Positions 5,845 to 36,346 of a stretch of 64,000 nucleotides of DNA are shown here, one piece after another. A program made the translations under genes and the position numbers. The notes beneath the pieces were generated by a model. The model was not told where the DNA came from. It did no database searches and was given only the letters and a program-made list of their open reading frames with translations. This DNA comes from Chlamydiota bacterium (GTDB lineage: Bacteria; Chlamydiota; Chlamydiia; Chlamydiales; RGXB01). The number at the start of each line of letters is the position of its first letter. The first letter of the stretch is position 1. The stretch spans positions 2,550 through 66,549 of the forward strand of contig VGMG01000001.1 in NCBI GenBank assembly GCA_016866495.1, read 5' to 3'.

Positions 5845-6387
5845 ATGTCTTTGGAAAACGCTACTGCAAATCTTAAGGAGTTCGGAAAAGAACTGAACCT
5901 CGAAGGGCTCGCTTTTGATGAAAACCATACCTGCATTCTTGGCATAGACAATGTTTTTTCATTACACTTAACCTATGAACCAAATTCTCAACGCCTTTAT
6001 CTCTATGCCCCTATTTTAGATGGGCTTCCCAAAGATAAAGAGACACTTTGTTTGCTTTACGAAGTGCTTTTAGAGGGCTCGATGCTAGGTGGCCAAATGG
6101 CGGGTGGCGGCGTTGGTGTTGCCGTCAAAGAGGAACTTATTTTGATGCATGCCGTGATTGAAATGGTAGCAGCCGATACTTCAAGCTTGAGAAGATTTGC
6201 TCCCGTATTTGTAGAAGCCGTTGAAAAATGGCGTGATATTGCAAAAAGAATCTGCGAAAGTCGCTACGATGAGAAAAAAGAGCGCGAAGCTCTTAGACCT
6301 TATCACCAAGGACCTGGTGGATCCCAACAACCCACTCAGGGTCAAAGTCACCAAGGCAAGCCTGGAGATCTCTTCAAAAGAGTCTAA
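5845..6387 (+). CDS. Type III secretion chaperone, CesT/SycE class I family (resembles chlamydial Slc1/CT043-type) with a Q/G/P-rich C-terminal tail
   Basis: NLKEFGKELNLEGLAFDENHTCILGIDNVFSLHLTYEPNSQRLYLYAPILDGLP...LLEGSMLGGQMAGGGVGV...LILMHAV matches the CesT-fold chaperone pattern as I remember it. The size and acidic character fit. It sits divergent to glgX, as I recall for Chlamydia. Confidence 0.6.
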   Translation: MSLENATANLKEFGKELNLEGLAFDENHTCILGIDNVFSLHLTYEPNSQRLYLYAPILDGLPKDKETLCLLYEVLLEGSMLGGQMAGGGVGVAVKEELILMHAVIEMVAADTSSLRRFAPVFVEAVEKWRDIAKRICESRYDEKKEREALRPYHQGPGGSQQPTQGQSHQGKPGDLFKRV

Positions 6388-6494
6388 TTATACCCCACTC
6401 ATTTACAAACACAAAAATGGTTCAGTTTATAAATAAAATTTATAAAATGAGCCTTTTTTGTTTTATTAGACTAGCCAATTTTTTTTGCCTCTTT

Positions 6495-7823
6495 TTAGCC
6501 TAGAGAGACAATTTTTCGTTGAATTTGCCCCATGTGGAACATAAGATCTTGGCTCTGTTTTTCTAACCCTTTAGTTACTTGGCGTATACTGGACATTACC
6601 GTAGAGTGGTCTTTATCAAAATATTTTCCAATTTTCAAATAGGGCATTTTTAATAAAGATCTCAAAAGATACATAGAGATCTGCCTAGGAAGTACCGACT
6701 CTCGTGTTTGGGATTTATTGAGCAAATCGTCCGGCTGTATACCAAATGACTGTGATACGATATCGAGAATTTTTTCTGCATTAAGAACCTCTTTGGTCTC
6801 TTGGACAATCAGCTGGTCGATCATTTTCTTGATCTCTTGGTTCGATTTCATCTGATTATGAGCTAAAGAGAGGGACTGCACCACCTTTTCTATAGATTTA
6901 GGTGTTTTCATCTCAACAATTACTTTATCCACAAGCTCTTCATCGAGGTGTAGCTTAAAGCGTTGCATTTTGAGTTTCAGAACTTGAAGAAGCTCGTCTT
7001 GGGTTTGGAGTCGTTCTACTGAGAGGACAATTCCCCATTCGAATCGGCTGATCAAACGCTCTTCAATCTCCTCTAAGAGTGCAGGGGGGGAGCTTGAGGC
7101 GAGTATAATTTGTTTCTCATGGATGTGTAAATGATTGAAGGTATGAAAGAGCTCTTCTTGCGTCGCAAATCTTTTGGAGAAAAGATGCACATCATCAATT
7201 ATTAGAGTATCTATTTTTCTGTAACAGTTACGAAAATCCTCCATGCGGGAGGAGCGGATAGCGCCCACAACATGCTGAGTGAATGTCTCAGCAGAGATAT
7301 AAAGAACATTTTGTCCTAGCCCCTCTAAAAGCTTTTTTGCCCCCTGTAAAAGGTGTGTTTTTCCCGATCCGCTGGGCCCATACAAATAGATGGGATTCAA
7401 AAATTCAAATGTTTGTAAAAGGGCACTTTTGAGAAGCTTAACCGTCATATCGGTTGTACTGTTTGCGGCAAAAGTTTCAAATGTCTGATCTGGATCTACC
7501 GGATCTGAGACAAATGAAAGAATTTTCTGGCCTGTTTCATGAGTTGTTTTTTGTAGATCCTCTTTTTTTAAAGAACCCTCGGATTGGCTTATTTTGATAT
7601 GGACTTGGATTTTTCGGCCGTTATTGTTCAACAGACTTTTGTCTATTCGAGACTCAATATGCTCTTTATACCAGTTGATCTGGAGAGCATCGTCAGCTTC
7701 TAAATAGAGATTGCAAGAATTAAAGTTTACAATCTTTAGAGGACGCAACCACCTATCAACCACCTCTTTAGAGAGGTGGCTTTCTTGTTCCAAGAGGAAT
7801 TCTTCCCAAATACGCGGTATCAT
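6495..7823 (-). CDS. dnaA: Chromosomal replication initiator protein DnaA
   Basis: Walker A (GPSGSGKTHLL), Walker B (IIDDVHLF), and a C-terminal DNA-binding helix (DHSTVMSSIRQV). Length is 442 aa. The ATG overlaps the yidC stop codon by 4 nt. Confidence 0.95.
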   Translation of the reverse strand: MIPRIWEEFLLEQESHLSKEVVDRWLRPLKIVNFNSCNLYLEADDALQINWYKEHIESRIDKSLLNNNGRKIQVHIKISQSEGSLKKEDLQKTTHETGQKILSFVSDPVDPDQTFETFAANSTTDMTVKLLKSALLQTFEFLNPIYLYGPSGSGKTHLLQGAKKLLEGLGQNVLYISAETFTQHVVGAIRSSRMEDFRNCYRKIDTLIIDDVHLFSKRFATQEELFHTFNHLHIHEKQIILASSSPPALLEEIEERLISRFEWGIVLSVERLQTQDELLQVLKLKMQRFKLHLDEELVDKVIVEMKTPKSIEKVVQSLSLAHNQMKSNQEIKKMIDQLIVQETKEVLNAEKILDIVSQSFGIQPDDLLNKSQTRESVLPRQISMYLLRSLLKMPYLKIGKYFDKDHSTVMSSIRQVTKGLEKQSQDLMFHMGQIQRKIVSLG

Positions 7824-9646
7824 TTCTTTAGGATTTGTATCTTAGATTTTCCTGAAATTTTCATCATCAAAAATTGTTGAGCCACTCCTAAGAAATTTGA
7901 GAAAGCAAAATAAATGTTGAGACCTGCAGCCAAATTGTAGAAAATTAGCGATAGGATGATAGGCGCAATAGTTTGCATGGTCGCTGCCTGTCTTTGACTC
8001 TCCTCGGTAGCTGCAGTCATTTTAGGTGCTGTCATTTTACTTTGAATAAACATAATCAGACCGACCAAGATTGGCAACAGGTGAAACTCATTACCAATAA
8101 AAGGGAGTGGATATCCCCAGCTAAAAAGAATGTCAGGCGCGGCTAAATTGGGAATCCAAGCCGGAATTAAAAAGGAGACACCCCTTAGTTCAAAATTCGT
8201 TTTGAGCAAATCAAAAATACCAATCAAAAAGGGGATTTGTACCAGGTGAGGTAAACATCCCGATAAAGGATTGATCTTTTTTTCTGAGTAGAGTCTCATG
8301 ATCTCTGCACGATATTTGGCAGGATCTTTTTTGTAGCGTGCCTCCAAAGCTTTGATTTCTGGCTGAATTTGCGCCTGAGCTTGCATCGCTTTGGTTGAGT
8401 AGTTATTCAACGGAAAAGTTATTAATCTCAAGACTAATGTGAATGCTAAAATCGAAACACCCCAAGAATTTGTGAACATGTAGCAGATTTTCATGATGAA
8501 AAACATAAAACGGACAAACGGAGCCGATATAAAGCTAAACCAACCCTGTACGGCTTGTGCTTGTTCAAATTGGGGATTTTGCGCATAGTTCTCTGAGGCC
8601 TTTGAGAGCATTTTTTCTTCATAAGGGCCAGCATAAAAACGGAAGGTGAAGGTCCCATTTTGGGGTATTATCTGCTTAGAAACTTGATAGGCAGGATAGG
8701 ATTTTACAGGATAAAGATCGTATTTTTGATCGATTAAATGTAATCGAGTCGGGCAGTTTTCCCCTTCAATTTTTCGAGCCACAAAACCTGTTTGCGATGG
8801 TTTAAAATCGGGACTTAAAATTGTTCCAAAAAATCCGTTCGAACTGGAAATCCATAAAGGATTTTGTGCAGGGTAAAAGCCTAAATCTTTTGAGGGAAGA
8901 GCCGTTTTCTCTAGGTAGGTTTTATCTCCTCTTACTTGCAAAGTCTGGATCATAGGGTCGTAGGCGCCAGAGATGAGCTCAACCTCGCTAATTCCATTAG
9001 ATAGAAAAAGCGGGAGGTTTTGGGCATTTCCAAAACTGATCGACATTTTAAATCCGTAAGGAGAGACTAACTCGTAACTTTTGACGATTTTTTGGCCATT
9101 GACGGTTCCGCTAAATTCTATTGAATCGGCCGTGAGCTTGGTCATTTGAAAAGTCCCCCCCTCATATTCCCCTTCTTCGTTTAGAAGCTGTCCCATGTAA
9201 AATTTAGGAGAAATAAGATAGCTATAGCCTCCGTTTTTCCCTTTTGTGGCACGCCTTAAAAGTGGAGTATAACCCCCTTGCTTTGGAAGATAAGGCTCGA
9301 TAGTGTCTGACTTTTTGTCAAAAAAGGTTGCTGCCATTAATGGGTATTGTGCATTTTGTGGAGACTCTTTTTCTATTTCTCGATCAAATTCTATGGGGCG
9401 GACAATGCTTATATTGTCTTTATTTGAAATGAAGGGAAGATTGATTTCGTTGATTGCTCCTCCAAGATTTGAAAAAACAATTTGCTGTGTATCATTTTCG
9501 AGAACATAAAATCTTTCGCTGGGATTTACCTTTAGGGGAGCAATTTCCACCGTTTGCGGGGGAGCAACGGGGGGTAAAATCCAAACATTAACGAAGAAAA
9601 GAACGATCGAAAGAACCAATATAAAAACAAATGATCGTTTATCCAT
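7820..9646 (-). CDS. yidC: Membrane protein insertase YidC
   Basis: An N-terminal TM helix, a large periplasmic P1-like domain, and a C-terminal polytopic core containing GCLPHLVQIPFLIGIF and NLAAGLNIYFAFSN, which are typical of YidC/Oxa1. Confidence 0.9.
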   Translation of the reverse strand: MDKRSFVFILVLSIVLFFVNVWILPPVAPPQTVEIAPLKVNPSERFYVLENDTQQIVFSNLGGAINEINLPFISNKDNISIVRPIEFDREIEKESPQNAQYPLMAATFFDKKSDTIEPYLPKQGGYTPLLRRATKGKNGGYSYLISPKFYMGQLLNEEGEYEGGTFQMTKLTADSIEFSGTVNGQKIVKSYELVSPYGFKMSISFGNAQNLPLFLSNGISEVELISGAYDPMIQTLQVRGDKTYLEKTALPSKDLGFYPAQNPLWISSSNGFFGTILSPDFKPSQTGFVARKIEGENCPTRLHLIDQKYDLYPVKSYPAYQVSKQIIPQNGTFTFRFYAGPYEEKMLSKASENYAQNPQFEQAQAVQGWFSFISAPFVRFMFFIMKICYMFTNSWGVSILAFTLVLRLITFPLNNYSTKAMQAQAQIQPEIKALEARYKKDPAKYRAEIMRLYSEKKINPLSGCLPHLVQIPFLIGIFDLLKTNFELRGVSFLIPAWIPNLAAPDILFSWGYPLPFIGNEFHLLPILVGLIMFIQSKMTAPKMTAATEESQRQAATMQTIAPIILSLIFYNLAAGLNIYFAFSNFLGVAQQFLMMKISGKSKIQILKK

Positions 9647-9804
9647 GGAGTTTTAACCTTTTTTTTCAAAAATAGTACCAACTTTCGATTAACGTGTACA
9701 TACTGAATGTGCTTGGTAAAAAGGAAAATTGACAAATCTTTTGGGCAATAAAGGTGAGGGAATTCCTCTAAACGAAAAAGAAACCAAAGAAGATCCAAGG
9801 ATAA

Positions 9805-9833
9805 AAAAAGAGGGCTTTTTAAGCCCTCTTTTT
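9805..9833. terminator. Bidirectional rho-independent terminator hairpin
   Basis: AAAAAGAGGGCTT-TTT-AAGCCCTCTTTTT forms a perfect 13-bp stem with A/T runs on both sides. It lies 12 nt downstream of the stop of the TPR gene (minus strand). Confidence 0.6.
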
Positions 9834-9844
9834 AAAGAGAATTT

Positions 9845-11509
9845 TTATGAGTCTATACTATGATTGTTCCACAATGTGAGTAGGTGGTGGAACTCATCAG
9901 TTTTTCTTAGATTTTCAAGCCAGGTGTCTTCCAGAAGCTCTTGCACGGGTGGCAAAGCGCCGATAGCTCGAGCTTTTTTCATCCATTCGAGAGCAAGATT
10001 TTTTTGGTTACGCAACGAGTAAAAACAAGCAATTTGATAGTAGGCTTGATTGTTACCCTGCTTTGCACTGCCCAAAAGCTTCTCTTCTGCCTCTCGCATG
10101 ATTGCATCAGAACGTTCGGTTTCTTGTATACAGTCATTGTAATGGATCAAAGTAAGTGCCCAATCCAGCAAAACAAACTCATGATCGGGATTATTTCGAT
10201 GGGCTAATCGAAAATGGCAAAAAGCACGCATGAAGTGATTGGCATCGCTTGTTATGCAAGCAAGGTGCGAAATAGTCAATCCGATCCGATGGTGCACATC
10301 AGGGATCGAGGGATCAAGAATCAAAACACGATTAAACTGTTCTACAGCGTGTACAAGAAGTGACTCATCATCTTTAGCCTCACCTAATGCATCAAGAAGA
10401 AGTCCGTATTCAAAAATCCACTCGGCAGGGGGGAAGGGTGAGCTTTTTTCTATTGAAAAAGCGGTTTCAAACCAAACTTTAGATTGCTCGAGATGTTCTA
10501 TGGCATGATCCAATTCAAACAATCTTGCATTTGCTATGGCAAGCTGAATAAATGTTTCTGCATCCGGATTATGTTGGATCGATTTTTGGAAAAATTTGAT
10601 AGATAAGCGCAAATGCCTCTCGTCCTCAATAGCTTCAAAGAGGAGAAAAAACGAAATTCCAAGGTAGTGCCAACCTAACGAGAAGCTTCTATCGATAGAG
10701 GTAGAGCGTTGGAAATAATAAATCGCATTTTGGATCTCCTCTAGATCGGAGGAATAGATAGCATAGCAAAGCAGCGCTATCCCTTTAGCATAAAGTTCAA
10801 TAGGAAGGTGCTCTGAAAGAAGCTGACTTTTATAAATCGATTCCGAAATTTTGTCGGCGTCTTCATGAAAAAGAGCAAAAAAAGCGCTAGACACTATACT
10901 TTGAGCCTTGGCTTTTTGATTTTTTGAATCGATGAGAACAATTTTTTCATATTGTTCTTGTGCCAGTTGTAGAAATTTAGGCTCCTTATTTCTTCTGCCA
11001 TACTCTTGATACAGATCGGCTCTGACAAAAAGAAGATCTGTATCCTGGGGATTTTCTTGCAGAAATCGACTGGTTTTTTCTAAAGACAAATGAAAAGTTT
11101 CTTCATCTCTTACTCTGCGATAAAGCTCCAGTAGCGTTTCAGAGATAACATGAGGGTCTTCAGACAACTTAGCGCTAAAAACAGCCTTTTCAAGACTATC
11201 TATTGAGCGGGTCTTTTCATAGATAAGCTGATAGACACCTGTGAGCTTTAGCCAGTCCTCTTTTTTGAGAGGATACTTTTCTTTCAAAAGTTTATCGTAG
11301 AATCTGATCGATGTCAGAGCATCTGTGATCTCTAGAGAGTATAAAGAGGTCAAAGCATAGGCAGATGCGAGTAAAGAGGTATGCGCAAGCTCTTCTTCTT
11401 GTTTAGGTTGGTAATTTTTGAGAACGGATAGGGCTTTTTCGATCAGCTTTCCAGGTTTACCCCTGGAGATAGCATGGAAAAGTTGACCTGTTTTCCTGAA
11501 CGGAGTCAT
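9845..11509 (-). CDS. TPR-repeat protein, function unknown
   Basis: 554-aa all-helical protein with recurring approx 34-aa A/Y/L-rich units (for example AYYQIACFYSLRNQKNLALEWMKKA and AIYYFQRSTSIDRSFSLGWHYLG). Confidence 0.65.
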   Translation of the reverse strand: MTPFRKTGQLFHAISRGKPGKLIEKALSVLKNYQPKQEEELAHTSLLASAYALTSLYSLEITDALTSIRFYDKLLKEKYPLKKEDWLKLTGVYQLIYEKTRSIDSLEKAVFSAKLSEDPHVISETLLELYRRVRDEETFHLSLEKTSRFLQENPQDTDLLFVRADLYQEYGRRNKEPKFLQLAQEQYEKIVLIDSKNQKAKAQSIVSSAFFALFHEDADKISESIYKSQLLSEHLPIELYAKGIALLCYAIYSSDLEEIQNAIYYFQRSTSIDRSFSLGWHYLGISFFLLFEAIEDERHLRLSIKFFQKSIQHNPDAETFIQLAIANARLFELDHAIEHLEQSKVWFETAFSIEKSSPFPPAEWIFEYGLLLDALGEAKDDESLLVHAVEQFNRVLILDPSIPDVHHRIGLTISHLACITSDANHFMRAFCHFRLAHRNNPDHEFVLLDWALTLIHYNDCIQETERSDAIMREAEEKLLGSAKQGNNQAYYQIACFYSLRNQKNLALEWMKKARAIGALPPVQELLEDTWLENLRKTDEFHHLLTLWNNHSIDS

Positions 11510-11770: not shown

Positions 11771-12130
11771 ATGTGGAAAAAATTTTGTTTTGAGGGGGTA
11801 GTTTTTATCCGTGAAACCGATGCAACAGCCAGAGTATTTTGCCCAAGGCCTATAGAATGGGTTATTGAGGCCTTTGAAAGGGTTTGTTTAAAAAAAGGGC
11901 AAAAGGATTCTGATGTTGCAATAGTGAAAGCAGGGGTAGAGTTTTTTTTCCCTCTCACCTGGTTTGATCCCTATAAAATGGAGCTGACTATCCAAAGGGT
12001 TGGTAATCGCTCTTTTGATATAAGAGGGGAGATTTTTAAAGAAGAGAAGCTAGCTATCAAAGTAGACATTACCTTTGTTGTTTCTAAATCGAGTCAGGAT
12101 TTTTTAGATTCGTACTGGGATAAGGGTTAG
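11771..12130 (+). CDS. Hotdog-fold (4HBT/YbgC-type) acyl-CoA thioesterase; candidate DHNA-CoA thioesterase
   Basis: 119 aa. The N-terminal FEGVVFIRETDATARVF matches the 4HBT pattern (hydrophobic-R/Y-x-E/D-T-D) that includes the catalytic Asp. Its stop codon directly abuts the stop of menC/menE in convergent orientation. Confidence 0.5.
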   Translation: MWKKFCFEGVVFIRETDATARVFCPRPIEWVIEAFERVCLKKGQKDSDVAIVKAGVEFFFPLTWFDPYKMELTIQRVGNRSFDIRGEIFKEEKLAIKVDITFVVSKSSQDFLDSYWDKG

Positions 12131-13948
12131 CTACTTAGGGATTTCTTTTGCTTCTATAAGTTTTCTTAGGAAGATGAGTGGGGGTTTGGCAGGGGTTTTG
12201 TCTGGAAGCTTCACCCATTTTTTTGGGATCATGTGCTTTGGGAAAGTTTCTTTAAGAAAGCTTTTCAGAGTTTCGATCTCTTTTTCTTCTAAAGAATCGT
12301 GAGCGATGCAAAGAGCTTCTCCCCAAACAGAATCCTCTACACCAAAGAGAAAAAATGATCCCTTATGGATAAATTTATGTAGTGCCTCTTCTAGGGTATC
12401 GAGGTGAATTTTTTCCCCGCCAGAATTGATTACACGGTCATGCCTGCCCGTTATAGTATAAAGACCATTTTGTATCTCTATAAGATCATTTGTGGAGAAA
12501 AAACCCTCAGAGTCAGCAACTACCGATGAGGATACCCCCTTTTTTTGGATCATAAAGCACCCCCTATGATCCCTCTTTACAACACAATTCCCCACAGGCA
12601 TCCCATCAATGAGACATGTGCCTAGTTCTGTTGAGGAGTAAATTATAATAGGTTTTATATTCCATTTTTCTACTACTTTTAGAAGAGAATCGGAGCATCG
12701 AGCTCCTCCTATCAATAGATTTTGTGCTCTAAACGTATCTTGTAGTTCGACTCTTTTGGATATTTGCGTCGGAACAACACTTTCAAAAGAGGCCTCCACC
12801 TTATCGTCTAAGACTAAAAACCCCTCTCCAAGTAATGGTCTTAAAAAACCCACCAACCCCCCCATGCGGGTTAAATCCAAAGAGGCCTTAAAGGAGGCTC
12901 CTTTAAATGTTGGGAATGTTTTGTATTGCAGATCTATATTGAGAGCCAAATCCTCCCAAGACCAGCATATGGTCTTTGGTACTCCTGTTGTTCCCGAACT
13001 TTTCATGAAGATTTTTGTATCTAAAGGGATGGACTCAAGATTTTGGGGCGTAAAAGAGCACTCAAGGGGAAAATGGATCGGGTTTCCAGCCCTCAGTAGC
13101 CAGAAAAATTTTGCTATGAGCTCAATACGCAGGTCCAATTGGAGTATATCTTCTCTATTTTCCAGCTCCCCTTTTATCAGACAATTTAATTCCCCGTAGG
13201 TGATGTCTTTTGTTTTCGTTTTGATCGCAATCTTTTTAGGATCTGTAGAGGCTAAAGGGCACCTTGAGACTTTTACTTTGTACTTTTCTACGTCAATACC
13301 CAAAGGTTCATCAAAAAGTTTTAGGTGGGTTGCAAGCTTGATAATTGGGGTGGAATCTTCAAGGGTACTACTCAAAACAATCCGTTTTTTCAAAAGTAAA
13401 CAGAGATCGACTATGGGCCGGTAAAAAACTCTGTAGGGTTTTATGACTGCAGCAACAACTTGGCTATAAGCTAATTTTTTTTCCCATCCCGGCTCCAAAA
13501 AACTTTCATCAAGAGCTAAGGGTACGTTGAGATCGAGAACATCTTCTATATTTTGTGTAGGTTCTTCAAAAAAATCGAGCCTGTCTTGAGGGATACACCG
13601 AACCAAAATTTGAACTTGTTCGGGAGTAAGGGTGCGATTTGCATCAATACGAATTTTTGCCTTGATAGAGACGAGTGTTTTTTTTACAAGCTCCATTCCA
13701 TTTTCAAAATCGAGATGAGTAATTTTGATTTTTACTGTTTTAGCATCGTATGCTCTTGGAATATCTAAGGGATCTGCTATGAAAAAAGCTGTGGGAAATG
13801 TTGCCATCTCCTTCAATTGGGCCATCTCTAAGGGGAAAAAAACTTGCGGGTTAAAGGGGAGCTCTATTTTTTCTCCGTTATAATCCAAACAAAGGATGGA
13901 CTTCTCTCCATAAAATGGGGAACTAAGACGGTAATGGTTTATTTCCAT
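12131..13948 (-). CDS. menC/menE: Fusion protein: o-succinylbenzoate synthase (MenC, N-terminal approx 225 aa) plus o-succinylbenzoate-CoA ligase (MenE, C-terminal approx 375 aa)
   Basis: The N-terminal half has enolase-superfamily residues in order: VKIKI (KxK), RIDAN, FFEEP, ALDES, VIKP. The C-terminal half has ANL adenylation motifs: SSGTTGVPK, IYSSTELG and GRHDRVINSGGEKI. The single ORF has no internal stop. Confidence 0.8.
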   Translation of the reverse strand: MEINHYRLSSPFYGEKSILCLDYNGEKIELPFNPQVFFPLEMAQLKEMATFPTAFFIADPLDIPRAYDAKTVKIKITHLDFENGMELVKKTLVSIKAKIRIDANRTLTPEQVQILVRCIPQDRLDFFEEPTQNIEDVLDLNVPLALDESFLEPGWEKKLAYSQVVAAVIKPYRVFYRPIVDLCLLLKKRIVLSSTLEDSTPIIKLATHLKLFDEPLGIDVEKYKVKVSRCPLASTDPKKIAIKTKTKDITYGELNCLIKGELENREDILQLDLRIELIAKFFWLLRAGNPIHFPLECSFTPQNLESIPLDTKIFMKSSGTTGVPKTICWSWEDLALNIDLQYKTFPTFKGASFKASLDLTRMGGLVGFLRPLLGEGFLVLDDKVEASFESVVPTQISKRVELQDTFRAQNLLIGGARCSDSLLKVVEKWNIKPIIIYSSTELGTCLIDGMPVGNCVVKRDHRGCFMIQKKGVSSSVVADSEGFFSTNDLIEIQNGLYTITGRHDRVINSGGEKIHLDTLEEALHKFIHKGSFFLFGVEDSVWGEALCIAHDSLEEKEIETLKSFLKETFPKHMIPKKWVKLPDKTPAKPPLIFLRKLIEAKEIPK

Positions 13949-14766
13949 AGGAAAAATGCGTGCAAAATATACAAAACAGTAAAAAGAAAGAACGCCGCCC
14001 CTATTTTTCCTAAAAGTGCCGGTATATCCTCGTCATTCCATAGCTTTTTAAGGATGTGGGATAACAAAGGTATAAGGCAAATGTTGAGAGGGGAGGGTGT
14101 AATGATAAAAGGGGCTAAAAGGGCCAGGGTGATCTCGATTTTCCCAAATCGCTCTCCATATTTTACCACCAAGGTATTTTTGTTCGTCAATCGATCCTCT
14201 TCAACATCTCTAAGGTTGTTTAAACCAAGTAATGCGACAGAAAAAAAGCCAGGGGAGAGCCCCACTATTAGAGGATAAAAAGAAAATTGTAGCGTTTGTA
14301 AGTAAGTCGTAAAAAAAACAGCTATTGAGCCTAAAAAAAAGAGCACAATAGGTTCACTTAGACCTTTATAAGCATAATTAATGGGACCTTTTGTGTAGAA
14401 AATCCCAAGAAGAACGGCTAAAGCGTACATCCCTACAATAATCCATCCACCCCTATAAACCAAATACAGGCTCAGTAAAAAACCCACAAAAAAGGTGAGG
14501 GCCATCATCCAAAAAAGCGTCGCTTTGCTCACAAGACCCGATTGACCAAGCCGCTTAGGACCTTTTCTTAAATCGGTGTCTTTTCCTTGGATACAGTCGT
14601 AATAATCATTCGCTAAATTGGTCCCCATTTGAATAAACAGGGCACAAAATAGGGTGATTGCAAAAACGAACGGATCAGGTTTTGGAGCAAGCAGGGTCCC
14701 GATGATTACAGGACTGATCGATGCTATCCAAGTTTTGGGACGAGTTCCCTGTATCCAAATGCGCAT
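13939..14766 (-). CDS. menA: 1,4-dihydroxy-2-naphthoate polyprenyltransferase (UbiA family)
   Basis: Polytopic membrane protein with N-terminus [13 protein letters not shown] and the UbiA motif [14 protein letters not shown]. Positioned within the men operon. Confidence 0.85.
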
Positions 14767-15556
14767 GGTTTCCTCTAAAACGTTGAAAATTTGGGGGGCG
14801 TTTTTCTAAAAAAGCCTGTTTTCCCTCTTTTGCTTCATCGGTTTTGTAATAAAGCATTGTAGCAAGCCCAGCTAGCTCCTGAATACCCGCTTGCCCGTCG
14901 ATATCAGCATTAAATGAGGCTTTTAAACAGCTCAAGGCGATCGGGGAGTGGGATAAAAGAGTTTGACACCACTCTTGAGTCGTAGCTAAAAGTTGATCGT
15001 AAGGGACAACCTGGTTGACAAGCCCCATAGCAAGAGCCTCTTTGGCTGTGTATTGTTTGCACATAAACCAAATTTCTCTAGCTTTCTTTTGTCCAACAAT
15101 ATGTGCAAGATAACTTGCCCCAAATCCCCCATCAAAAGAGCCTACTTTCGGACCCACTTGGCCAAAAATGGAGTGCTCAGCAGCTATTGTCATGTCACAC
15201 AAGACGTGTAGCACATGCCCCCCACCGATTGCGTATCCAGAAACCATAGCGATTGTAGGCTTGGGGCAGGAGCGTAGCTTTTTTTGAAAAGTTAAAACAT
15301 TTAAACTTTCACGGCCGTGATCATCTCTATAACCCTCGTCTCCGCGAACACTTTGATCTCCCCCTGAACAAAATGCCTCTTTACCTTGACCGCTCATAAC
15401 AATCACACCAATTGCGGGATCGTCTATGGCGTTATCTAGAGCTGAAATCATCTCGATAACGGTTTTTGGCCTAAAGGCATTACGCTTATTAGGTCTATTG
15501 ATAGTAATCCAGGCAATCTGCGCCTCTTTATGATAAAGGATATCTACATAGTTCAT
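14675..15556 (-). CDS. menB: 1,4-dihydroxy-2-naphthoyl-CoA synthase
   Basis: Crotonase fold with MenB signatures: [22 protein letters not shown] and [45 protein letters not shown]. Carries an approx 30-aa C-terminal extension that overlaps menA. Confidence 0.95.
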
Positions 15557-16281
15557 TCTAATACCTTCTGTAGCAATACTGCTAATTGGGAGGGTTGTTC
15601 TAAGTGCACAAGGTGTCCGCTGTCCTTGAGATTATGTAGGAATATAGGTTCAGGTGAGTCTTTAAAGCAATCCTCCATTTCAATATAGAGCGGGTCCTTT
15701 GCTCCGTAAATCAGGTGTACAGGCTGTTTGAAAGGTTTATCAAACGGTCTTTGTTCTAAAATACTTAAATTCTGAAACTGATTTAAAAGGGTTTTTGAGC
15801 CTATGGCTATTTTTGCTTTCAAAGATTCTTCAGAGGGAAAAAACCCCCCAAATATTGGGAGTGCATACCACCACTTAAAAAATAGATCTGTTGGAAGATG
15901 GGAAAGTTTTTCGGCAACTTTTTGTTCAAAAAGGGCTCTTGAGGCGTGATCAAATTTTTTTGTTTTTACTCTTGAGGATAGACAGATTACCTTTTGGAAA
16001 AGTTCAGGATGACAGCGCGCAAGTTCCAGGGCAATTCTTCCACCCATAGAATATCCTATGATAGGAATAGTTCCTAACGAAAAGGTTTCAAGAAAGTGGA
16101 AGATTTTTTCTGTAACAACATCGATACTCCCCTCCGGTAGAAGTACACAAATGGGACTACACCAGGACTTCATCTTTTCAATTAAAGGATCGAAATCGGA
16201 GTTTGTAGAGCCGAATCCTCCTAAAATAAGAACAGGTTTTCTTATTGATACATGAGCTGGGTTTGTTCCTTTAGATTCCAT
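15553..16281 (-). CDS. menH: SHCHC synthase (alpha/beta hydrolase)
   Basis: Alpha/beta-hydrolase nucleophile elbow GYSMGGRIA and a C-terminal [11 protein letters not shown]. It sits between menD and menB. Confidence 0.75.
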
Positions 16282-17939
16282 TCGATAAGGGTCTTTAATC
16301 TTTGAATATGGTTTAGATCATCTTTTTGTTGGGTTTTGACCTCTAGAAGAATCGGCCTTTTTTTCTCTATCAAACTCTCAATACACACCTCTTCATTTAA
16401 AAAATGGTATTCCAAATGAAACATACTGGCGACTTTTTTGTAATCCAGCTCTTGCGGCATTAAGAAAAGCTCCTCTTTATCCTCAAGCTCTTGCATTCCG
16501 TCTATGTAATTAAAAATCTGACCACCACCGTTATTGAACACAATCAAAACTAGGGGTAGGGGGTTCTTTTTTAAAAAAAATAAAGAGTTCAAATCATGCC
16601 AAAAGGTCATGTCTCCTAATAGGGCCACCGTTGTGCGCTCTTTCTTTAAAGCGATTCCGATTGCTGTAGCTATGTTGCCCTCAATTCCTGAATGGCCTCG
16701 ATTGGCAAAAATATCTCCCCGGAATTCTTCGGGATAAAAAACACGGTCTACATGTCTTATGGGCATACTGTTACCCACAAAAAGATTAAAATAGACAGAG
16801 CTTTTTGAGAGCAGTCGAATAAATGCTATTTCTGATATCAAGGGTTCTTCAAAAAGAGCTTTATCAATCGTATCACGACAGATTACGGAGAGTTCCAAGC
16901 AGTTTTTGATATAGCTTGAGGGAACTCTAGCTGGGGTAAATTGTATAAGATCGTGAATGAACTGACCTGGTTCCATTAATATTCTATGAGTGATGGCATG
17001 CTCAGGGTCGCTTCTTTCTGTATGAGGGCTTACGTAGACAACCTGATCGATACCATTCAGCCAAGGATCGATATTTTTACAAACAAAACGATCACCAAAT
17101 TTTATGGCTATATCGGGTTTGATCTCTTCAAGAATGTTTTCATAATTTTGAAGAACATAACGGGATGAAGCCGTCTTTCTACAATTCGATAGGGGGTCGA
17201 GAATAACTGGCCAGCCTAGGTGTTTAGCAAGCTCGAAAAGGTGCTTGGGTTCCACGTTTAGAGAGTCCCCAACAACTATGACCCCTTTTTCGTAGCAAAG
17301 AATCTTCTTCTGGATCTCAAGAGCCTCTTTATCGCTTAATGTGCGACAAACCGTTTTAAAGATCGTTTTTGGTTTCAAAAAGGGGCGCTCTTTTACCGCA
17401 GCATGAATCAGAGGTGTTCTAAATTGGCAGTTTAAATGAATCGGTCCCCCATTTTCTGCTGTAGCAGTGAAAACGGCGTGGGCTACCATCGATTTTGTAA
17501 AGCTTTCAGGTATTTCTGCTGAAGGCGGAGGAAACTGGAAATGGAAGCGTACAAATGGATCATAAAAATCATATTGTTCTATTGTCTGGTTCGCCATGGC
17601 TTGATGGAGCTCAGGGGGTCGATCGGCAGTCAACAAAATTAAAGGGATACGCGTCTTATAGGCCTCAATTACGGCTGGTAAAAGATGGGCAAGAGCGCTT
17701 CCGGAGGTAACGATAAGAGCTACGGGCTCTTTGAACACCTTACAAAGACCCAAAGCCAGATATCCCAAACCCCTTTCATCAAAATGGGTGTGCACTATTG
17801 CTAAAGGGTTTCTTTTCGCTGCGAGTGTTAATGCAGAGGATCTAGAGCCGGGAGCTATGCAAAAATGACGCACATTTTGCGCAACTAATTCTTCGATAAG
17901 GTTTTCCGAAAAAAGGGTGTTCCAGTACGCGGTATTCAT
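16242..17939 (-). CDS. menD: SEPHCHC synthase (ThDP-dependent)
   Basis: PGSRSSALTLAA at the N-terminus and the ThDP-binding region GDMTFWHDLNSL...NNGGGQIF. Length is 565 aa. Operon context supports the call. Confidence 0.9.
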   Translation of the reverse strand: MNTAYWNTLFSENLIEELVAQNVRHFCIAPGSRSSALTLAAKRNPLAIVHTHFDERGLGYLALGLCKVFKEPVALIVTSGSALAHLLPAVIEAYKTRIPLILLTADRPPELHQAMANQTIEQYDFYDPFVRFHFQFPPPSAEIPESFTKSMVAHAVFTATAENGGPIHLNCQFRTPLIHAAVKERPFLKPKTIFKTVCRTLSDKEALEIQKKILCYEKGVIVVGDSLNVEPKHLFELAKHLGWPVILDPLSNCRKTASSRYVLQNYENILEEIKPDIAIKFGDRFVCKNIDPWLNGIDQVVYVSPHTERSDPEHAITHRILMEPGQFIHDLIQFTPARVPSSYIKNCLELSVICRDTIDKALFEEPLISEIAFIRLLSKSSVYFNLFVGNSMPIRHVDRVFYPEEFRGDIFANRGHSGIEGNIATAIGIALKKERTTVALLGDMTFWHDLNSLFFLKKNPLPLVLIVFNNGGGQIFNYIDGMQELEDKEELFLMPQELDYKKVASMFHLEYHFLNEEVCIESLIEKKRPILLEVKTQQKDDLNHIQRLKTLIEWNLKEQTQLMYQ

Positions 17940-36272: not shown

Positions 36273-36346
36273 GGGGTGCTAGCTCAGTTGGTTAGAGCGT
36301 TACGTTGACATCGTAAAGGTCAGTGGTTCGAGTCCACTGCATCCCA
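36273..36346 (+). tRNA. tRNA-Val (anticodon GAC)
   Basis: Folded manually. Acceptor stem GGGGTGC/GCATCCC (one G-T pair); D arm GCTC-AGTTGGTTA-GAGC; anticodon arm TTACG-TTGACAT-CGTAA; T arm AGTGG-TTCGAGT-CCACT; discriminator A. The CCA end is not encoded. Confidence 0.9.

What the first reader, a model, noticed from the sequence alone, without database searches (positions are those of the whole stretch)
12131..13948. Single-ORF MenC-MenE fusion with both halves unusually compact
One 605-aa ORF carries a minimal o-succinylbenzoate synthase of approx 225 aa. All five enolase-superfamily catalytic and metal positions are recognisable: KxK, DxN, EEP, DES and K. It is joined directly to an approx 375-aa OSB-CoA ligase (SGTTGVPK, STELG, GGEKI). 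These enzymes catalyse consecutive steps, so the fusion could channel OSB. Both halves are shorter than typical stand-alone enzymes. The fusion differs from the plant PHYLLO fusion (MenF/D/C/H).
Basis: partly seen in the sequence, partly recalled or inferred. Interest (0 to 1): 0.55.

Follow-up and report, generated by a model that had tools for sequence, protein, structure and literature searches.

The report
Compact MenC–MenE fusion in freshwater chlamydiae
A chlamydia-like freshwater bacterium makes two consecutive vitamin K2 (menaquinone) enzymes as one 605-residue protein, with the first enzyme cut down to about two-thirds of its normal size; the fusion is real and conserved, only moderately surprising, and current annotation pipelines miss it.

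Summary
The 605-codon ORF at 12131-13948 (minus strand) is real. It is the last gene of a complete, translationally coupled men operon (ubiE-menF-menD-menH-menB-menA-menCE). Residues 1-222 are an o-succinylbenzoate synthase (OSBS, MenC)-like enolase-superfamily barrel. It keeps every catalytic position of E. coli OSBS (K73/K75, D102, E129, D147, K170) but has lost most of the capping domain. Residues 228-605 are a short-type OSB-CoA ligase (MenE).

It is not an assembly artefact. The identical protein occurs on 8 contigs, and orthologues of 39-93% identity occur in at least six Chlamydiota MAG species with the same synteny. The OSBS half is the most conserved part (dN/dS 0.06-0.15).

Related chlamydial operons carry separate, overlapping menC (272-313 aa) and menE (364-392 aa) genes in the same position, so the fusion is derived. 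Only MenC shrank; the MenE half matches its unfused relatives end to end.

The fusion type is not unique. Independent full-size MenC-MenE fusions (689-855 aa) and a MenC-MenE-MenH fusion exist in other lineages, and those named by a source are annotated only as "OSB-CoA ligase". Substrate channelling, or replacement of the cap by MenE, remains untested.

Verdict: a new variant of a known kind, of moderate interest.

The parts
12131..13948 (-). menCE: a single 605-codon ORF (stop codon at 12131-12133) encoding the fused OSBS-like and OSB-CoA-ligase protein. It equals NCBI MBM3195132.1, annotated 'hypothetical protein [Chlamydiae bacterium]'.
13793..13948 (-). Residues 1-52: the minimal capping region, three beta strands (2-8, 15-23, 26-31) plus one short helix. 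It is about 38 aa shorter than in unfused relatives. There is no Pfam MenC_N hit and the WxExSPLPG motif of the standalone enzymes is absent.
13292..13792 (-). Residues 53-219: the enolase-superfamily (beta/alpha) barrel of the OSBS half and the most conserved segment of the protein. Catalytic codons are K73 13730-13732, K75 13724-13726, D102 13643-13645, E129 13562-13564, D147 13508-13510 and K170 13439-13441.
13229..13291 (-). Residues 220-240: the junction. Strand 224-229 is ordered in the full-length model (block pLDDT 82) but disordered when the N-half is modelled alone (pLDDT below 50). C230-P231 are invariant. This segment replaces the roughly 39-aa C-terminal cap tail of standalone MenC and the first ~13 residues of standalone MenE.
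12464..13228 (-). Residues 241-495: the MenE (ANL) N-terminal domain. The P-loop S318-K325 lies at 12974-12997. R370 (12839-12841) aligns to E. coli MenE R195. Also present are Y437-SSTELG and T486-N-D488.
12134..12463 (-). Residues 496-605: the MenE C-terminal (mobile) domain, with hinge motif G501-R502-x-D504 ... G510-G-E-K513. Invariant K588-P589 (12185-12187) sits where the A10 lysine is expected.
13939..14766 (-). menA (DHNA polyprenyltransferase). Its stop overlaps the menCE start by 10 nt (ATGGAAATAA), which indicates translational coupling.
14675..15556 (-). menB (DHNA-CoA synthase; NF005637 scores 436 bits against a cut-off of 380).
15553..16281 (-). menH (SHCHC synthase-like alpha/beta hydrolase).
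16242..17939 (-). menD (SEPHCHC synthase; TIGR00173 scores 394 bits).
17943..18977 (-). menF (a short isochorismate synthase of 344 aa).
18974..19693 (-). ubiE/menG (demethylmenaquinone methyltransferase), the first gene of the operon.
11771..12130 (+). A convergent 119-aa hotdog (4HBT) thioesterase whose stop codon abuts the menCE stop. Its position is conserved in all related men loci. It is a candidate DHNA-CoA thioesterase.

Best explanation
menCE encodes a bifunctional enzyme for two consecutive steps of the classical menaquinone pathway. The N-terminal 220 residues form a Mg2+-dependent OSBS. This is an enolase-superfamily barrel in which K73 (end of strand 2) and K170 (strand 6) act as the acid/base pair and D102, E129 and D147 hold the metal, dehydrating SHCHC to o-succinylbenzoate. 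The C-terminal 378 residues form a short-type MenE that adenylates OSB with ATP (P-loop 318-325, R370 for the OSB carboxylate, K588) and then transfers it to CoA after rotation of the C-terminal domain.

The gene arose inside one freshwater lineage of Chlamydiota. A small deletion across the overlap of adjacent menC and menE genes removed MenC's C-terminal cap tail. Either with it or afterwards, about 50 residues of the N-terminal capping domain were also lost.

What is shown: the ORF, the domain homologies, residue conservation, purifying selection, synteny, and the unfused state in relatives. What is inferred: both catalytic activities, the order of the events, and any kinetic benefit. That benefit could be fixed 1:1 stoichiometry or less loss of diffusible OSB from an intracellular bacterium.
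For: Homology and fold.
- The ORF is intact and lies in a complete men operon.
- By sequence, the N-half's best solved relative is E. coli OSBS (E 2e-8), with all six catalytic and metal positions aligned.
- The AF2 model of the N-half alone reaches pLDDT 87.5 and pTM 0.83. Its nine best PDB fold matches are all OSBS structures.
- The full-length model reaches pLDDT 86.9 and pTM 0.74. Its best PDB fold matches are MenE from E. coli, S. aureus and B. subtilis and the short ligase 4gs5.
- R370 aligns with E. coli MenE R195.

Not an artefact.
- The identical protein occurs on 8 contigs.
- There are 12 full-length orthologues.
- Six GTDB Chlamydiota species carry it, with identical synteny at 44-53% identity.

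Selection on the OSBS half.
- The barrel is the most conserved segment: 66% mean pairwise identity and 34% invariant columns, against 47-50% and 18-21% for the MenE domains.
- dN/dS of the OSBS half is 0.078, 0.145 and 0.057 in three unsaturated pairs, against 0.21, 0.16 and 0.19 for the MenE half.
- It is the only OSBS-like ORF in the 64-kb window.

Derived origin.
- Related operons have separate menC and menE at the same position. L004 and L005 have a 13-nt overlap; the others are L014 (a Chlamydiia MAG) and L015.
- The MenE half aligns end to end with unfused P0013.
Against: - No activity has been measured.
- Both halves score far below the curated family cut-offs. OSBS NF003473 scores 56 bits against 236; MenE TIGR01923 scores 72 against 330; Pfam MR_MLE_C scores 27.1 against 29.4.
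- The capping domain, which in the enolase superfamily closes the active site and shapes specificity, is largely missing. An unaided barrel might therefore be a poor catalyst.
- Only 64 kb of the genome is available, so a second menC elsewhere cannot be excluded.
- The models rest on shallow alignments (11-13 sequences), and the cap is less confident in the full-length model (pLDDT 64-78) than in the N-half model (about 90).
Confidence: 0.8

Rival explanations
1. Artefact: two adjacent genes (menC and menE) were merged by an assembly or sequencing error that removed a stop codon or shifted the frame.
For: In related operons menC and menE are separate and overlap by 13-14 nt, so a single indel could join them. 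The sequence comes from a metagenome-assembled genome.
Against: The identical 605-aa protein was called on 8 contigs from several sources. Full-length orthologues of 39-93% identity keep the same single ORF. Six different GTDB MAG species from different lakes carry it. The junction residues C230-P231 are invariant. The MenC half is about 90 aa shorter than any unfused relative, which one indel cannot produce.
Confidence: 0.01
2. Relic: the N-terminal half is a catalytically dead remnant of MenC kept as a folding or scaffolding extension of MenE. In this case the SHCHC-to-OSB dehydration is done by another protein or occurs without an enzyme.
For: Most of the capping domain has been lost. Scores are below threshold for all OSBS models. 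Only part of the genome can be inspected.
Against: Every catalytic and metal-binding residue is invariant across the clade, including the 39%-identical P0047. The barrel is the slowest-evolving part of the protein and has dN/dS of 0.06-0.15, lower than the MenE half. No other OSBS-like ORF is present in the operon or the window.
Confidence: 0.07
3. Composite enzyme: the MenE N-terminal domain physically takes over the role of the lost capping domain, closing the OSBS active site. The barrel would then be active only within the fusion, and OSB would pass directly into the MenE acyl pocket.
For: The compact barrel is never found unfused. The five closest clusters among 1.84 billion representatives are four fusions and one 158-aa N-terminal fragment, and the next hits are 30 orders of magnitude weaker. 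There is no flexible linker: junction strand 224-229 is ordered only in the full-length model. In standalone OSBS the chain after the barrel returns to the cap, and that is where MenE is attached here. A pTM of 0.74 for a three-domain protein suggests at least one defined domain-domain arrangement.
Against: All compact forms belong to one clade, so 'always fused' may reflect a single origin only. The N-half folds confidently on its own in silico, and its mini-cap is modelled with less confidence in the full-length protein. Independent MenC-MenE fusions keep a full MenC_N cap. No model coordinates or PAE could be inspected, so no interface has been seen.
Confidence: 0.2
4. The N-half has changed reaction, for example to N-succinylamino-acid racemase or another enolase-superfamily chemistry, and is not an OSBS.
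For: The OSBS/NSAR family is known for promiscuity (own knowledge), and loss of the cap would alter specificity.
Against: The gene occupies exactly the menC slot of a men operon that otherwise lacks this step. Its nearest sequence and fold relatives are bona fide OSBS enzymes of the E. coli type.
Confidence: 0.02

Closest known systems
o-Succinylbenzoate synthase (MenC/OSBS), E. coli type (PDB 1FHU/1FHV/1R6W; NCBIfam NF003473), of the enolase superfamily, MLE subgroup
   Same: The same barrel fold is predicted, with the KxK, D, E, D and K catalytic and metal positions in the same spacing. It is the best sequence match (E 2e-8) and the best fold match, and the gene sits in the same operon role.
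   Different: The domain is about 220 aa instead of 294-356 aa. The N-terminal cap is reduced to three strands plus one helix, and the C-terminal cap tail is replaced by MenE. There is no MenC_N Pfam hit, identity is only 20-27%, and scores fall below all curated cut-offs.
Short-type OSB-CoA ligase (MenE): unfused P0013/P0014 of related operons, PDB 4GS5 (Dyadobacter, 358 aa), NCBIfam PRK07824 (362 positions)
   Same: It has the same length class and aligns end to end with P0013 (28% identity over 370 columns). It carries the P-loop, YxxTE, GRxD..GGxKI and terminal K motifs, and an Arg equivalent to E. coli MenE R195.
   Different: It is covalently joined at its N-terminus to MenC. It is very divergent (TIGR01923 scores 72 bits against a cut-off of 330). 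It also has clade-specific invariant residues after the P-loop (W329, N337, Q341) that are absent from P0013.
Full-size MenC-MenE fusions in other bacteria (P0018 689 aa; P0078 826 aa; P0118 754 aa; P0193-P0199 806-855 aa, some from Phycisphaerae MAGs) and the MenC-MenE-MenH fusion P0143 (1002 aa)
   Same: The domain order is the same (MenC then MenE), and where context is known the gene lies in a men operon (L003). Those named by a source are annotated only as 'o-succinylbenzoate--CoA ligase'.
   Different: P0018, P0078 and P0118 keep a complete MenC with a MenC_N cap, and P0078 and P0118 pair it with a long MenE; P0143 has no MenC_N hit. P0078 and P0118 reach the curated MenC and MenE cut-offs. 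They are not close relatives of the chlamydial form (E 1e-13 to 1e-10 in the N-half profile search, behind many unfused OSBS), so they probably arose independently.
PHYLLO of plants and algae (MenF/MenD/MenC/MenH fusion)
   Same: It is a multi-enzyme fusion of the menaquinone/phylloquinone pathway that contains a MenC module (PMC6189191).
   Different: PHYLLO joins the four steps up to OSB and excludes MenE, which is peroxisomal in plants. Here only MenC and MenE are joined, and MenF, MenD and MenH are separate genes.

Membership tests
OSBS (MenC) family, enolase superfamily | A (beta/alpha)7-beta barrel domain | tested here: met
   AF2 models (pLDDT 87) show alternating strands and helices from residue 54 to 219. 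The nine best PDB Foldseek matches are OSBS structures, followed by other MLE-subgroup enzymes.
OSBS (MenC) family, enolase superfamily | Catalytic KxK at strand 2, K at strand 6, and three carboxylate metal ligands at strands 3, 4 and 5 | tested here: met
   K73/K75, K170, D102, E129 and D147 align to E. coli K133/K135, K235, D161, E190 and D213. They are invariant in all orthologues.
OSBS (MenC) family, enolase superfamily | A full alpha+beta capping domain (N-terminal ~100-130 aa plus a C-terminal tail; Pfam MenC_N) | tested here: not met
   There is no MenC_N hit. Only about 52 residues precede the barrel. hhalign begins at residue 34, matching column 72 of the standalone profile, and the profile's 39-residue C-terminal tail is missing.
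OSBS (MenC) family, enolase superfamily | Score above the curated family thresholds | tested here: not met
   NF003473 scores 56 bits against 236; TIGR01927 scores 39 against 130.55; PF13378 scores 27.1 against 29.4.
OSBS (MenC) family, enolase superfamily | Genomic association with the other men genes, with no other menC present | tested here: met
   It is the last gene of the ubiE-menFDHBA operon and occupies the slot held by menC in L004, L005, L014 and L015. It is the only OSBS-like ORF in the window. The rest of the genome was not available.
OSBS (MenC) family, enolase superfamily | Conversion of SHCHC to OSB | not testable with these tools
   This needs an enzyme assay or complementation.
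MenE (OSB-CoA ligase), ANL adenylate-forming superfamily | ANL core motifs: P-loop (S/T)GTTGxPK, YxxTE, the invariant Asp before the hinge, GRxD...GGxKI, and a C-terminal lysine | tested here: met
   S318-GTTGVPK325, Y437-SSTELG, D488, G501-R-x-D504, G510-GEK513 and K588 are all invariant or nearly invariant.
MenE (OSB-CoA ligase), ANL adenylate-forming superfamily | MenE-specific relationship rather than a generic acyl-CoA ligase | tested here: met
   The four best NCBIfam hits are MenE models. The best fold hits are E. coli, S. aureus and B. subtilis MenE. R370 aligns with E. coli MenE R195. It aligns end to end with the MenE of unfused men operons.
MenE (OSB-CoA ligase), ANL adenylate-forming superfamily | Score above the curated family thresholds | tested here: not met
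   TIGR01923 scores 71.8 bits against 330; NF005877 scores 74.4 against 345; PF00501 scores 17.8 against 29.9.
MenE (OSB-CoA ligase), ANL adenylate-forming superfamily | ATP- and CoA-dependent formation of OSB-CoA | not testable with these tools
   This needs an enzyme assay.
PHYLLO-type men fusion | MenF, MenD, MenC and MenH modules in one polypeptide | tested here: not met
   MenF, MenD and MenH are separate ORFs upstream. The fusion contains only MenC-like and MenE-like parts.

The most novel reading that the evidence does not exclude
The chlamydial MenCE may be an obligate composite enzyme. Having lost most of its enolase-superfamily capping domain, the OSBS barrel would use the adjoining MenE N-terminal domain as its lid, so that OSB is made and adenylated in one enclosed, shared cavity. 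That would be the smallest functional enolase-superfamily catalytic unit known, and a case of a foreign domain replacing the specificity-determining cap.
Probability: 0.2. Interest if true: 0.6.

Novelty: new variant of a known kind. Interest (0 to 1): 0.38.

Why it matters
1. Annotation. NCBI calls this protein 'hypothetical' and IMG calls it only 'OSB-CoA ligase'. The independent full-size fusions that carry a name are labelled only as MenE. Automated pathway reconstruction will therefore score menC as missing and the menaquinone pathway as incomplete in this chlamydial lineage and in the others.

2. Enzyme evolution. The OSBS family is a standard model for extreme sequence divergence with retained function. 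A barrel of about 220 residues with a vestigial cap, under strong purifying selection, would set a new lower size limit. It also offers a natural test of how much the cap is needed.

3. Pathway organisation. MenC-MenE has been fused at least three or four times independently. This suggests a recurrent advantage in coupling OSB formation to its activation, which may matter especially for intracellular bacteria that could lose diffusible OSB to the host.

None of this overturns existing knowledge.

Tried and rejected
- **Genome-collection scans.** The first scan of genome contigs used exact peptide patterns from the single protein and found nothing. A repeat with the alignment found six chlamydial species.
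- **Myxococcota hits.** Two hits in that scan (L012, L013) looked like further fusions, but ORF listing shows adjacent, separate menC and menE in different frames. They were rejected as fusions.
- **Literature.** Searches for a described MenC-MenE fusion returned nothing relevant. This is absence in the held library, not proof that it is unpublished.
- **Taxonomy of the unfused relatives.** Cluster names did not give the taxonomy of the closest unfused relatives L004 and L005. The unfused chlamydial state instead rests on L014 (labelled Chlamydiia) and on the extended synteny of L015.
- **Is the compact OSBS found only in the fusion?** This holds for close relatives. However, a few distant OSBS-like ORFs of 206-250 aa exist in the metagenome library (P0124, P0128, P0147, P0163). 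Their completeness is unknown, so I do not claim this is the smallest OSBS in existence.
- **Barrel filling the missing MenE subdomain.** I considered that the long Foldseek alignments to 485-aa MenE meant the barrel occupies the position of the missing MenE subdomain. I rejected this, because internal gaps explain the column count.
Full report
**Observation**

The window holds an uninterrupted ORF of 605 codons at 12131-13948 on the minus strand, with an ATG start and a TAG stop. It is the last gene of a tightly packed minus-strand operon:

- ubiE/menG, 18974-19693
- menF, 17943-18977
- menD, 16242-17939
- menH, 15553-16281
- menB, 14675-15556
- menA, 13939-14766

Pfam and NCBIfam identify each of these. 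The menA stop overlaps the ORF's start by 10 nt (ATGGAAATAA). A convergent 119-aa hotdog thioesterase ends exactly where the ORF's stop codon begins.

**Domain content**

NCBIfam places an OSBS match at residues 67-207 (NF003473, E 3e-15). MenE matches cover residues 313-585 (TIGR01923, E 5e-20; the four best hits are MenE models). Pfam gives weak MR_MLE_C and AMP-binding hits. All of these are below the curated cut-offs, so the protein is very divergent.

A profile of the N-half finds E. coli OSBS as its best solved relative (E 2e-8). The alignment pairs K73/K75 with K133/K135, D102 with D161, E129 with E190, D147 with D213, and K170 with K235. From established knowledge of the enolase superfamily, these are the acid/base lysines and the Mg2+ ligands. 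The PDB entries found here include K133R and E190A mutants of E. coli OSBS.

The C-half's best solved relatives by sequence are the 358-aa short ligase 4gs5 and E. coli MenE. R370 aligns with E. coli MenE R195. From my own knowledge this residue binds the OSB carboxylate, and the PDB holds an R195K-OSB-AMS complex.

**Structure predictions**

The full-length AF2 model has pLDDT 86.9 and pTM 0.74. The N-half modelled alone has pLDDT 87.5 and pTM 0.83.

The N-half consists of three short strands and one helix (residues 1-52), followed by an alternating strand/helix barrel (residues 54-219). Its nine best PDB fold matches are all OSBS structures of 294-356 residues. The full-length model's best matches are MenE from E. 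coli, S. aureus and B. subtilis, together with 4gs5.

The junction is not a floppy linker. Strand 224-229 is ordered in the full-length model but disordered when the N-half is modelled alone. C230-P231 are invariant.

**Not an artefact**

The exact protein is NCBI MBM3195132.1 ('hypothetical protein', Chlamydiae bacterium MAG) and was called on 8 contigs. Eleven further full-length relatives (597-653 aa, 42-93% identity) keep the single ORF. An exhaustive profile search of 1.84 billion representatives adds P0047 (614 aa, 39% identity in the N-half).

A scan of GTDB species representatives found the fusion in six Chlamydiota MAG species. Loci L001 and L008 have the same gene order from ubiE through menCE, the convergent thioesterase, a TPR protein, yidC, dnaA and a CesT chaperone.

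**The OSBS half is under selection**

The barrel is the best-conserved segment. It shows 66% mean pairwise identity and 34% invariant columns, against 47-50% and 18-21% for the two MenE domains.

In three unsaturated gene pairs, Nei-Gojobori dN/dS is 0.078, 0.145 and 0.057 for the OSBS half. For the MenE half it is 0.21, 0.16 and 0.19. No other OSBS-like ORF exists in the window. This argues strongly against a decaying relic.

**Origin**

The closest non-fused relatives of the MenE half, P0013 and P0014, lie in operons with the same order. That order is menH-menB-menA-menC-menE with a convergent 4HBT thioesterase. In these operons menC (306 or 313 aa) and menE (383 or 364 aa) are separate genes overlapping by 13 nt.

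A MAG labelled Chlamydiia (L014) has menD-menH-menB-menA-menC (272 aa)-menE, also unfused. L015 shares the extended synteny, including the TPR protein and yidC. It has menC (291 aa), an inserted cyclase gene, and menE (392 aa).

The fusion is therefore a derived state within Chlamydiota. The MenE half aligns with P0013 from residue 14 to the end (28% identity), so the ligase did not shrink on fusion. It belongs to an already known short class (4gs5; PRK07824 with 362 positions).

The MenC half did shrink. Profile-profile alignment matches residues 34-224 to columns 72-275 of a 314-column standalone profile (probability 99.8%). This implies losses of about 38 residues from the N-terminal cap, about 13 internal residues, and the 39-residue C-terminal tail. 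The invariant WxExSPLPG motif of the standalone enzymes is gone.

**The fusion type is recurrent**

Independent MenC-MenE fusions exist:

- P0018 (689 aa), in a menF-menD-menB-menCE operon.
- P0078 (826 aa) and P0118 (754 aa), both reaching the curated MenC and MenE thresholds.
- Relatives of 806-855 aa, some from Phycisphaerae MAGs; those that NCBI names are called just 'o-succinylbenzoate--CoA ligase'.
- P0143 (1002 aa), a MenC-MenE-MenH fusion.

P0018, P0078 and P0118 keep the MenC_N cap, while P0143 gave no MenC_N hit. These fusions rank behind many unfused OSBS in the N-half profile search, so they are most likely separate events. Two Myxococcota hits proved to be adjacent but separate genes.

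I found no paper describing a MenC-MenE fusion. The literature does confirm that chlamydiae outside the Chlamydiaceae use the classical Men pathway (PMC5826181). It also confirms that PHYLLO joins MenF, MenD, MenC and MenH but not MenE (PMC6189191).

**Mechanism**

The most likely mechanism (confidence 0.8) is a bifunctional enzyme:

- The barrel dehydrates SHCHC to OSB by Mg2+-assisted enolisation. K73 and K170 act as the acid/base pair, and D102, E129 and D147 bind the metal.
- The ligase half then adenylates OSB and transfers it to CoA by the usual ANL domain alternation.

Both activities are inferred from homology, residue conservation, selection and operon position. Neither has been measured.

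Whether the fusion channels OSB, or whether the MenE N-domain substitutes for the missing cap, is open. In favour: the compact barrel is never found unfused among close relatives, the junction is rigid, and MenE is attached where the cap tail would be. Against: all compact forms come from a single clade, the barrel is predicted to fold alone, and no interface could be inspected. I give this reading about 0.2.

**Verdict**

The MenE half is an ordinary short MenE, and MenC-MenE fusion as such is not unique. What is distinctive is a strongly conserved OSBS domain of about 220 residues with a vestigial cap, which annotation pipelines miss. I rate it a new variant of a known kind, with interest about 0.38.

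Noticed in passing
window 11771-12130 (+): A 119-aa hotdog-fold (4HBT, weak YbgC/FadM) thioesterase lies convergent to menCE, with the two stop codons abutting (TAG|CTA). A homologue sits in the same place in L001, L004 (28% identity), L008, L015 and L016. It is a candidate DHNA-CoA thioesterase, the remaining step of the pathway.
   Followed up: partly
window 14675-15556 (-): The menB ORF is 293 aa, with a C-terminal tail of about 25 residues that overlaps menA by 92 nt. In related loci MenB is 268-279 aa. This could be a mutated stop codon or a sequencing error in this MAG.
   Followed up: no
window 17943-18977 (-): MenF is only 344 aa (GTG start) and barely passes the isochorismate synthase model (225.5 bits against a cut-off of 224.75). 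The same 344-aa length is conserved in L001 and L008. The operon's enzymes look generally trimmed.
   Followed up: partly
window 5845-11509: Downstream of the operon lie a 554-aa TPR protein (9845-11509, -), yidC (7820-9646, -), dnaA (6495-7823, -) and a CesT-family type III secretion chaperone (5845-6387, +). The order is the same in relatives at 44-53% identity. Cumulative GC skew shows no turning point near dnaA.
   Followed up: partly
window 19870-21069 (+): This divergently transcribed 399-aa ORF has a long hydrophobic stretch (about residues 66-116) followed by an extended heptad-rich, coiled-coil-like region. Its only hit is a weak bZIP match. It may be an inclusion-membrane (Inc)-like protein.
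   Followed up: no
L001 (GCA_013558295.1, contig JACCDN010692138.1): The orthologue P0011 lies on a 201-kb chlamydial-type contig inside an assembly whose contig numbering exceeds 690,000. This suggests a symbiont or contaminant within a very large (possibly host) assembly. P0011 also has a 48-aa C-terminal extension that overlaps the convergent thioesterase gene.
   Followed up: no
P0143, P0154, P0212, P0214, P0216 (database proteins): Other men-pathway fusions turned up: MenC-MenE-MenH (1002 aa), MenC-NUDIX (472 aa), a MenD-fragment/MenH/MenC protein (890 aa) and MenH-MenE (758-776 aa). Gene fusion seems common in this pathway and is poorly annotated.
   Followed up: partly
L015 7884-8654: In a related chlamydial-type men operon, a 256-aa cyclase-family (PF04199) gene is inserted between menC and menE, and two unannotated genes sit between menD and menH.
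   Followed up: no
P0124, P0128, P0147, P0163 (database proteins): These are distant OSBS-like ORFs of only 206-250 aa that start with Met and have little or no cap. They may be truncated gene calls or genuinely minimal stand-alone OSBS enzymes.
   Followed up: no
window 36273-36346 and 47490-47574 (+): Two tRNA genes are the only Rfam matches above the gathering threshold in the window.
   Followed up: no
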